A stretch of DNA of 64,000 nucleotides, taken from the NCBI GenBank assembly GCA_964016885.1, contig OZ024753.1, forward strand, positions 45,942,001 to 46,006,000, written 5' to 3'. This document shows, in pieces, positions 45,504 to 48,491 of this stretch (position 1 is its first letter; each line of letters opens with the position of its first letter). The position numbers and the translations under genes were made by a program. Under the pieces are notes generated by a model. That model saw nothing but the letters and a program-made list of their open reading frames with translations, was not told the origin of the DNA and ran no database searches. This DNA comes from Eledone cirrhosa. Taxonomy: Eukaryota.

Positions 45504-48491
45504 TACACACACACACATATATATATATATATATATATTATATATATATATATATATAATATTTATATATATATATATATATATATATATATTTATATAT
45601 ATATATATATTTATATATATATATATATATATATTTATATATATATATATATATATATATTTATATATATATATATATATATATATTTATATATATATAT
45701 ATATTTATATATTTATATATATATATATATATATAATATATTTATATATATATATATATATATATATATATTTATATATATATATATATATATATTTATA
45801 TATATATATATATATATATTTATATATAATATATATATATATATATATTATATATATATATATATATATATATTTATATATATATATATATATATATATT
45901 TATATTTATATATATATATATATATTTATATTTATAATATATATATATATATATATATATATATATATATATATATATATTTATATATATATATATAATA
46001 TATATATTTATATATATATATATATATATATATTTATATATATATATATATATATATATATATTTATATATATATATAATATATATTTATATATATATAT
46101 ATATATATTTATATATATATATATATATATATTTATATATATTTATATATATATATTTATATATATTTATATATATATATATATATTTATATATATATAT
46201 ATATTTATATATATATATTATATATTTATATATATATTTATATATATATATATTTATATATATATATATTTATATATATATATATTTATATATATATTTA
46301 TATATATATATTTATATATATATATATTTATATATATATATATATATATTTATATATATATATATATATATATATATATTTATATATATATATATTTATA
46401 TATATATATATTTATATATATATATATATTTATATATATATATATATATATATTTATATATATTTATATATATATATTTATATATATTTATATATATATA
46501 TTTATATATATTTATATATATATATATATATATATTTATATATATTTATATATATATATATATATATATATATTTATATATATATATATATATATTTATA
46601 TATATATATTTATATATATATTTATATATATATATATATATATATTTATATATATATATATATATATATATATATATATATATTTATATATATATATTTT
46701 ATATATATATATATATATATATATTTATATATATATATTTATATATATATATATATATATTTATATATATATATTTATATATATATATATATATATTTAT
46801 ATATATATATATTTATATATATATATATTTATATATATATATTTATATATATATATATATATATATATTTATATATATATATATTTATATATATATATTT
46901 ATATATATATATATATATATATATTTATATATATATATATTTATATATATATATATATATTTATATATATATATATTTATATATATATATATATATTTAT
47001 ATATATATATATTTATATATATATATATATATTTATATATATATATATTTATATATATATATATTTATATATATATATTTATATATATATATTTATATAT
47101 ATATATTTATATATATATATATTTATATATATATATATTTATATATATATATATTTATATATATATATATTTATATATATATATATTTATATATATATAT
47201 TTATATATATATATATTTATATATATATATATTTATATATATATATTTATATATATATATATATTTATATATATATATATTTATATATATATATATTTAT
47301 ATATATATATATATTTATATATATATATATTTATATATATATATATTTATATATATATATATTTATATATATATATATTTATATATATATATATTTATAT
47401 ATATTTATATATATTTATATATATTTATATATATATATATATATATATTTATATATTTATATATATATATATATATATATATATATATATATTTATATAT
47501 TTATATATATATATATATATTTATATATATATATTTATATATATATATATATATATATATATATATATTTATATATATATATATATATATTTATATATAT
47601 ATATATTTATATATATATATATATTTATATATATATATATTTATATATATATATATATATATTTATATATATTTATATATATATATATTTATATATATAT
47701 ATTTATATATATAGTTTTAATATAGATGAGATTCTACAGGACTAGAACTGTTTCATTCATTAGAAATCATCAGGAATCTCATATATAACGTATATTTATA
47801 TATATATATATATATATATATTTATATATATATATATATATATTTATATATATATATATATATATATATTTATATATATATATATATTTATATATATTTA
47901 TATATATATATATATTTATATATATATATATTTATATATATATATATTTATATATATTTATATATATATATATTTATATATATATATATTTATATATATA
48001 TATATTTATATATATATATTTATATATATATATATATTTATATATATTTATATATATATATATTTATATATATATATATTTATATTTATATATATATATT
48101 TATATATAGTTATATATATATATATATATTTATATATATATATATATTTATATATATTTATATATAATTATATATATTTATATATATATTTATAAATATA
48201 TATAAATATATATATTTATATATATATTTATAAATATATATAAATATATATATATATATATATATTTATAAATATATATAAATATATATATATATATATA
48301 TATATATTATATATATTATATATATATATATATATTATATATATATATATATTATATATATATATATATTATATATATATATATATATATATTATATATA
48401 TTATATATATATATATTATATATATATATATTATATATATATATATTATATATATATATATTATATATATATATATATATATATATATATA
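45504..48491. repeat. ~3 kb interrupted (TA)n array with one unique island at 47713-47791
   Basis: Direct reading: (TA)n with recurrent TT interruptions. Confidence 0.97.
47721..47787 (-). ncRNA. Type I hammerhead ribozyme inside a ~3 kb (TA)n array
   Basis: Minus strand reads AUGAGAUUC-CUGAUGA-uUUCuaauGAAu-GAAA-CAG-uucuaguc-CUG-UA-GAAUCUCAT. It has a perfect 9-bp stem I, intact CUGAUGA and GAAA core, a 4-bp stem III and a GUA cleavage triplet. Stem II is weak, with a U-U closing pair. Confidence 0.85.

What the first reader, a model, noticed from the sequence alone, without database searches (positions are those of the whole stretch)
47713..47791. Lone hammerhead ribozyme as the only unique island in a 3 kb (TA)n array
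The ~78-bp island is almost entirely the ribozyme. Stem I is 9 bp perfect (14 with one mismatch), the core is CUGAUGA/GAAA and the triplet is GUA. Stem III plus loop, ACAG-UU-CUAG-UC-CUGU, is quasi-palindromic and so compatible with dimeric folding. It may be a minimal mobile unit. If it lies in a minus-strand intron it could cut the nascent transcript. The U10.1-U11.1 pair and 3-bp stem II may reduce activity.
Basis: partly seen in the sequence, partly recalled or inferred. Interest (0 to 1): 0.75.

Follow-up and report, generated by a model that had tools for sequence, protein, structure and literature searches.

The report
Penelope retrotransposon end carrying hammerhead ribozyme
The island is a clipped end-piece of a jumping gene (a Penelope-like retrotransposon that lands in TA repeats) whose hammerhead RNA motif occurs about 28,000 times in this genome and is predicted to cut well only when paired with a second copy, so this copy is ordinary; more unusual is that the same motif alone forms a satellite of about 377 kb elsewhere in the genome.

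Summary
The hammerhead motif is real (0 of 3,000 shuffles match) but it is neither lone nor a mobile unit of its own. Window 47713-47779 is 67/67 identical to the terminal-repeat (pLTR) hammerhead upstream of intact 713-aa ORFs of a young Hydra-clade Penelope-like element. A 25-mer of it has 28,397 exact genomic matches. The island's lower edge is one of the element's two standard ends (3,697 exact junctions). The six bases at its upper edge are the other end, inverted. The 9-bp stem I is most likely an inversion-junction by-product: the native arm (5,474 copies) gives 6 bp, the window-type arm occurs 77 times, and the exact junction once. U10.1-U11.1 is common in published Hydra-clade hammerheads (14 of 26 rows), not decay. 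Dimer folding is favoured in silico; cleavage is untested. No host exon was found near it. By-catch: a head-to-tail satellite of a 78-bp hammerhead-only unit, about 4,800 copies, far above the 300-unit maximum in a recent survey, with no sign of selection on the core. Verdict: new family of a known kind.

The parts
45517..48491 (.). (TA)n array with T/A variants; target of the insertion
   Evidence: TRF period 2, about 1,496 copies; Hydra-clade elements insert in (TA)n (PMC8557442 section 11)
47713..47779 (-). 67-nt pLTR segment of the Hydra-clade Penelope-like element: native 6-nt 5' arm, hammerhead, and sequence up to the proximal terminus
   Evidence: 67/67 identical to the pLTR upstream of the ORF in 6 of 30 ORF loci, three of them with a 758-codon open frame (L220, L224, L231)
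47767..47773 (-). Catalytic core C3-A9 (CUGAUGA)
   Evidence: sequence; no listed read variant at these positions (50 rows not shown)
47755..47766 (-). Stem II: U10.1-U11.1, 3 bp, variable 4-nt loop
   Evidence: 13 different loops in 30 loci while the seven stem and U11.1 positions stay 27-30 of 30
47736..47754 (-). G12-A13-A14, and stem III (4 bp including A15.1-U16.1) with a quasi-palindromic 8-nt loop
47734..47735 (-). Predicted cleavage site, after GUA (between 47735 and 47734)
   Evidence: hammerhead numbering applied to the sequence; cleavage untested
47713..47720 (-). Proximal terminus ('site B', tail-less end) joining (TA)n
   Evidence: 3,697 exact genomic junctions; loose ends at the same place in 418 and 534 raw reads
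47780..47784 (-). Junction bases that extend stem I from 6 to 9 bp; not part of the element's native arm
   Evidence: native arm 5,474 copies, window-type 77, perfect fold-back 58
47785..47790 (+). 6-nt remnant of the distal terminus ('site A', end of the roughly 64-nt tail), in opposite orientation, running into (TA)n
   Evidence: matches the last 6 nt of the tail in 21 of 30 loci; the only CG beside the island; same head-to-head layout with the full tail in 16 of 20 fold-back loci

Best explanation
The island is a 67-nt piece of the terminal repeat of a young Hydra-clade Penelope-like retrotransposon, likely pasted into the (TA)n array by that element's own reverse transcriptase and GIY-YIG endonuclease as an extremely short head-to-head insertion, and its hammerhead is predicted to cut efficiently only as a dimer or with the element's protein. 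Shown: identity to the pLTR upstream of intact ORFs, the two fixed ends, (TA)n flanks and the inverted layout. Inferred mechanism: the endonuclease nicks both strands of (TA)n; one strand primes reverse transcription at the distal start (site A) and the other at the proximal start (site B); the two opposed cDNAs are joined, here at the self-complementary stem I, which yields one core inside a lengthened helix. In this copy almost all of the site A arm is missing (short first cDNA or later deletion). As a single copy with no partner in cis it is most likely a passive remnant.
For: 67/67 identity to the pLTR in L220, L224, L231, each followed by an uninterrupted 713-aa ORF. 20 of the 100 scored ORF matches have 758-759-codon open frames and all 100 are 96-100% identical. 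The ORF model (pLDDT 93) has telomerase RT as its top six PDB matches. Hydra motifs RW[K/R], DKT, CxCX5C, CxxC and CxH are present. Two termini: 14 tailed, 14 tail-less, 2 other in 30 native-arm loci; both are seen in independent raw reads. In 20 fold-back loci, 16 have the tail on one side and a tail-less end on the other, and 4 the reverse. Two internal start sites that bracket a tail, cleavage and extension of both strands, and a protein-assisted hammerhead are shown in vitro for another Penelope-like element (PMC11167929, parts 1-2 of 4). Monomer stem II and III pair probabilities are 0.13-0.32.
Against: The site A remnant is only 6 nt. No target-site duplication can be read in (TA)n. The priming and joining steps are inferred from end patterns and from a Poseidon-clade element, not this family. 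Enrichment of junctions at stem I over other positions was not tested; many inversions join elsewhere. The tail here (about 64 nt) is longer than the 30-40 nt reported. The lengthened stem I makes the monomer hammerhead fold more stable than the native one (-11.4 against -5.9 kcal/mol), so some monomer cleavage is not excluded. Pfam gives only a weak GIY-YIG match (E 0.13 full length; 2e-4 on a fragment) and no RT family match.
Confidence: 0.88

Rival explanations
1. The 78-bp island is itself a minimal mobile unit, copied from copy to copy as a SINE-like or circular hammerhead RNA.
For: 77 short copies start with the same 5' arm; a trimer with TA spacers exists (L178); a 78-bp hammerhead-only unit exists in tandem on C28 and C1.
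Against: The exact 5' junction is unique. The 30 window-type loci read carry the same loop and tail variants as the full elements and have mixed 3' ends (16 tail-less, 11 tailed, 3 other), which fits repeated independent truncation. The tandem unit has the native arm, not the window's.
Confidence: 0.05
2. The copy was co-opted and cleaves a minus-strand host transcript (intronic regulatory ribozyme).
For: Intact core; stem I more stable than in the element.
Against: Zero divergence from active elements means it is very recent. No host exon was found: 128 of 388 filtered open frames scanned gave two sub-threshold Pfam hits, and a strict exon scan printed nothing. Thousands of equivalent copies exist.
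Confidence: 0.04
3. A longer 5'-truncated forward copy that started at site B simply stopped at stem I; the extra bases and the 6-nt match are untemplated or chance.
For: 5' truncation is the norm for these elements (PMC8557442, passages); 15 of 30 window-type loci are tail-less with no opposite tail found upstream.
Against: The flanking CG is exactly the inverted distal end, in an array with one other G/C base in about 2,900; the three added stem bases are the complement of the 3' arm. This differs from the best reading only in how the 5' junction formed.
Confidence: 0.12

Closest known systems
Hydra-clade EN+ Penelope-like elements (Craig et al. 2021, PMC8557442; read: passages, section 11, supplement part 2 and search hits)
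   Same: Single ORF under 3 kb with RT and C-terminal GIY-YIG; RW[K/R], DKT, CxCX5C, CxxC, CxH; (TA)n target; pLTR hammerhead; inverted 5'-truncated partner; optional tail. U-U before stem II in 14 of 26 listed Hydra hammerhead rows; a 3-bp stem II (Penelope-9_HM) and ACAG/CUGU stem III with GUA (Hydra-1_aMil, Penelope-1_NV, Penelope-1_SK) are listed there too.
   Different: A different family from the published Hydra-1_Obim (other hammerhead and protein, compared by eye; 0 supplement hits for this stem III). Loop III is 8 nt with an inner palindrome, against 1-3 nt in the listed Hydra rows. Tail about 64 nt. 3' region holds a long microsatellite-rich stretch inside the element.
Dimer-dependent type I hammerheads of Penelope-like elements (Cervera and de la Pena 2014, PMC4209133, parts 1-2 of 4; review PMC6765202, passages)
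   Same: In the terminal repeat; mostly single truncated copies; opposite-strand pairs close together; palindromic helix III; low predicted monomer activity.
   Different: Helix II is short (3 bp) and opens with U-U rather than a long helix with G10.1-C11.1.
PAc, Poseidon element of Anolis (Frangieh et al. 2024, PMC11167929, parts 1-2 of 4)
   Same: Two internal reverse-transcription starts that bracket the tail; AT-rich targets; both strands used.
   Different: Other clade; there the ORF starts inside the hammerhead, here about 160 nt downstream; no biochemical data for this family.
Animal non-LTR retrozymes (PMC7229834, passages; bioRxiv 10.64898/2026.07.22.740005, parts 1-3 of 5)
   Same: Applies to the C28 satellite: head-to-tail type I hammerhead units derived from a pLTR.
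   Different: The island is a solo fragment, not a tandem unit. The satellite unit is 78 bp (expressed retrozymes 170-400 nt; predicted families 51-972 bp) with about 4,800 units against a reported maximum of 300; expression unknown.

Membership tests
Type I hammerhead ribozyme | Conserved core CUGANGA...GAAA...UH at a three-way junction | tested here: met
Type I hammerhead ribozyme | Three helices that can form, open at stem I | tested here: met
   Can form (-11.4 kcal/mol) but is not the monomer MFE; stem II 0.13-0.17, stem III 0.28-0.32 pair probability
Type I hammerhead ribozyme | Rfam family at gathering score | tested here: not met
   HH9 12.3 bits against 52
Type I hammerhead ribozyme | Covariation in helices | tested here: inconclusive
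   Loop II varies while stem II is fixed; one native copy of a sister subfamily (L265) changes both arms of stem I, which is one event; no covariation in stems II or III
Type I hammerhead ribozyme | Self-cleavage after H17 | not testable with these tools
   needs in vitro assay
Hydra-clade Penelope-like element (source element) | Single ORF, telomerase-like RT, element body under 3 kb | tested here: met
   713 aa; top six fold matches TERT
Hydra-clade Penelope-like element (source element) | C-terminal GIY-YIG endonuclease | tested here: met
   VYK...YIG at 586-604; weak Pfam match here, passes the cut-off in homologue P0074
Hydra-clade Penelope-like element (source element) | RWK and DKT motifs | tested here: met
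   DKT at 116; RWR at 38 (K in 83, R in 29 of 116 homologues)
Hydra-clade Penelope-like element (source element) | CxCX5C linker; CxxC and CxH either side of conserved E and N | tested here: met
   566-574; 666-669; E672; N685; 694-696
Hydra-clade Penelope-like element (source element) | (TA)n insertion, pLTR with hammerhead, inverted partner, optional tail | tested here: met
Hydra-clade Penelope-like element (source element) | Phylogenetic placement with published Hydra families | not tested
   published sequences compared by eye only
Non-LTR retrozyme (the island) | At least two tandem units with hammerheads | tested here: not met
   single copy in the window
Non-LTR retrozyme (C28 satellite) | Tandem non-coding units, each with a type I hammerhead | tested here: met
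   971 of 1,276 aligned units keep an intact core
Non-LTR retrozyme (C28 satellite) | Expressed as linear and circular unit-length RNA | not testable with these tools
   no RNA run available to lay

The most novel reading that the evidence does not exclude
The family's hammerhead has spawned the longest ribozyme array yet described: about 4,800 head-to-tail 78-nt units (about 377 kb) that, once transcribed, fold as double hammerheads and cut themselves into 78-nt monomers or circles, among the smallest retrozyme RNAs; and the ribozyme's stem I doubles as the strand-switch site that joins the two opposed cDNAs during insertion, as frozen in this island.
Probability: 0.15. Interest if true: 0.7.

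Novelty: new member of a known kind. Interest (0 to 1): 0.36.

Why it matters
The island itself adds little: solo pLTR hammerheads in (TA)n are expected. The family is useful. It is young, has intact ORFs, and leaves thousands of insertions with two sharp ends, so it offers a test of two-site priming in a clade with no biochemistry, and of whether the common Hydra-type U-U hammerhead cuts. The 377-kb hammerhead-only satellite, which begins at an inverted element end, is a direct example of a retrozyme-like array born from a Penelope-like insertion, a route proposed in a 2026 preprint from phylogeny. If it is transcribed it would be a very large source of self-cleaving RNA.

Tried and rejected
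DNA search with the tail alone found nothing (common words are skipped, so uninformative). Rfam at gathering score: no match. Single-sequence fold unusable (pLDDT 32). PDB sequence searches: nothing significant. Sequencing runs: no RNA holder listed, no evidence either way on expression. Second read laying, on the tandem 7-mer, added nothing clear. Host gene search: none found. Selection on the core inside the satellite: not detected (core mean 0.032 against other classes 0.022-0.063, P = 0.11; 34 of 1,310 units dropped as misaligned; units are not independent). One-step copying of the satellite from an RNA circle: not supported, units differ from the commonest unit at 2.2 of 68 positions on average; the C1 7-mer has no near-identical block in the 28% of the array read (best 96.4%). 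Lunse et al. 2017 on dimeric Penelope hammerheads was not available; only its citation in PMC6765202 was seen. Literature searches: penelope+hammerhead+ribozyme, hammerhead/penelope-like/dimers/stem II, octopus+penelope+hammerhead, octopus+satellite+ribozyme; none of the listings describes this family or satellite, but Repbase, Dfam and preprint supplements could not be seen and may hold it. Look-ups of earlier findings by place and by sequence were empty.

Full report
Observation. On the minus strand, 47713-47791 holds a type I hammerhead motif as described: core, GUA triplet, 9-bp stem I with four more pairs beyond a mismatch, U-U then a 3-bp stem II, and a quasi-palindromic stem III. A descriptor of that strictness matched 0 of 3,000 shuffles of the island and none of 20 shuffled windows; in the real window it finds this motif and a second, unrelated one near 55970-56040 (+). 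Rfam recognises it only weakly.

Copy number. The island gave 765 first-look candidates, of which 40 were scored. A 25-mer across stems II and III has 28,397 exact matches with 0 for the control pattern; this count includes sister subfamilies and satellite units. Of the first 30 loci, 22 continue into a tail of about 64 nt (21 to its end) and 8, including the window's, stop at the same base and run into (TA)n.

Source element. One of 30 unbiased loci led from hammerhead and tail into an ORF. A protein search returned 100 scored matches at 96-100% identity, 20 with open frames of 758-759 codons (counted from the table). In 7 of the 30 loci fetched the hammerhead lies upstream on the same strand; the window's 47713-47779 is 67/67 identical in six and 66/67 in one. 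The 713-aa product has 1,406 homologues at E 1e-20 or better among 7,993 candidates. With 116 of them aligned, the model is confident (pLDDT 93) and its top six PDB matches are telomerase RTs. It carries the motifs that define the Hydra clade in PMC8557442 section 11: RW[K/R], DKT, CxCX5C, and CxxC and CxH around conserved E and N. Pfam support is weak. It is not the published Hydra-1_Obim (by eye). Full copies read pLTR, ORF, microsatellite-rich 3' region, pLTR.

Anatomy of this copy. The element has two ends. In 30 native-arm loci 14 end after the tail (site A), 14 before it (site B) and 2 otherwise. Both ends show as loose ends into TA in raw reads of two runs from an independent study. The island's lower edge is site B, with 3,697 exact junctions genome-wide. 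The native 5' arm of stem I gives 6 bp and occurs 5,474 times (part of these are satellite units); the window's arm occurs 77 times. I predicted that such arms come from inversions joined at stem I, which implies copies whose 5' arm is the perfect complement of the 3' arm; there are 58. In the 20 read, 16 have an inverted tail upstream and a site B end downstream, and 4 have a tailed end downstream with no tail upstream. The island fits this layout with the site A arm cut to 6 nt (47785-47790, + strand), and that junction is unique. Against: the remnant is short, 15 of 30 window-type loci show no opposite tail, and many inversions join at other points.

How it likely works. In vitro, another Penelope-like protein nicks AT-rich DNA, extends both strands, starts at two internal sites that bracket the tail, and assists its hammerhead, which is not needed for insertion (PMC11167929). 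I infer the same here: one strand primed at site A, the other at site B, the cDNAs joined at stem I. For the ribozyme, stem III pairs far better between two copies than within one (-12.8 against -1.4 kcal/mol), and monomer stems II and III have pair probabilities of 0.13-0.32. Published metazoan Penelope hammerheads showed no monomer and low dimer cleavage (PMC4209133). The lengthened stem I stabilises this copy's monomer fold, so weak cutting is not excluded. U10.1-U11.1 appears in 14 of 26 Hydra hammerhead rows of the supplement; only 383 genomic copies of the tested pattern have another base at 10.1; loop II varies while the stem stays fixed. This fits selection in the element lineage, not on this copy. 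No host gene was found around it.

By-catch. Reads showed a head-to-tail joint 75-77 nt back. The genome has 1,765 such joints, all on one strand. They trace to an array on contig C28 from about 30,496,730 to 30,873,720, about 377 kb or 4,830 units of 78 bp, of which about 28% was read, with a few interruptions. It begins at an inverted site A end in TA. 971 of 1,276 aligned units keep the core, but the core is not more conserved than the rest (P = 0.11), which points to growth at the DNA level. A tandem pair favours the double-hammerhead over two monomers (-15.5 against -8.9 kcal/mol), though neither is the MFE (-23.1). A recent survey reports tandem hammerhead units of 51-972 bp, at most 300 repeats, and cleavage in 1 of 9 tested dimers (bioRxiv 10.64898/2026.07.22.740005).

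Earlier scan notes, seen only after this reading was formed, report similar end patterns and satellites for other families; they are unchecked leads, not support.

Verdict. Real motif, ordinary copy: a pLTR fragment of a new, young Hydra-clade family. Novelty: new member of a known kind. Interest 0.36, carried mostly by the satellite and the clear end pattern.

Noticed in passing
G000 C28 about 30,496,730-30,873,720 (L181-L190, L200-L210): Head-to-tail satellite of a 78-bp unit that is only this hammerhead, about 4,830 units, starting at an inverted element end in TA; higher-order spacing; no detected selection on the core.
   Followed up: yes
L199:1750-2330 (G000 C1 near 350,200,300): Seven-unit block of the same 78-bp unit without TA flanks; origin unexplained.
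   Followed up: partly
L095 (G000 C1 83,679,000-83,688,900): At least nine tandem copies of a roughly 1,070-bp unit made of the element's 3' region, hammerhead and tail; retrozyme-like.
   Followed up: partly
L178 (G000 C27 near 21,363,550) and L179 (C306): Trimer of window-type hammerheads joined by short TA runs (69-73 bp period); dimer of hammerhead plus tail (168 bp).
   Followed up: partly
window 55970-56040 (+): Second hammerhead of another family, long stem II and palindromic short stem III, between TA tracts; same sequence in L011.
   Followed up: partly
L005, L008, L010, L026: At least four further unrelated hammerhead families beside TA tracts, some in inverted pairs.
   Followed up: no
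window 48109: The only G/C base in the array outside the island; could be a trace of another element end or a point change.
   Followed up: no
window 44940-45400 (-): Degraded reading frame just below the array that looks like a LINE RNase H segment (motif recalled, not tested).
   Followed up: no
window 12384-12660 (-) and 39558-39961: Fragments that look like C-terminal parts of non-LTR retrotransposon ORFs (by eye).
   Followed up: no
L202:750-1800: The satellite ends abruptly inside a unit and is followed by three copies of an unrelated repeat of a few hundred bases.
   Followed up: no
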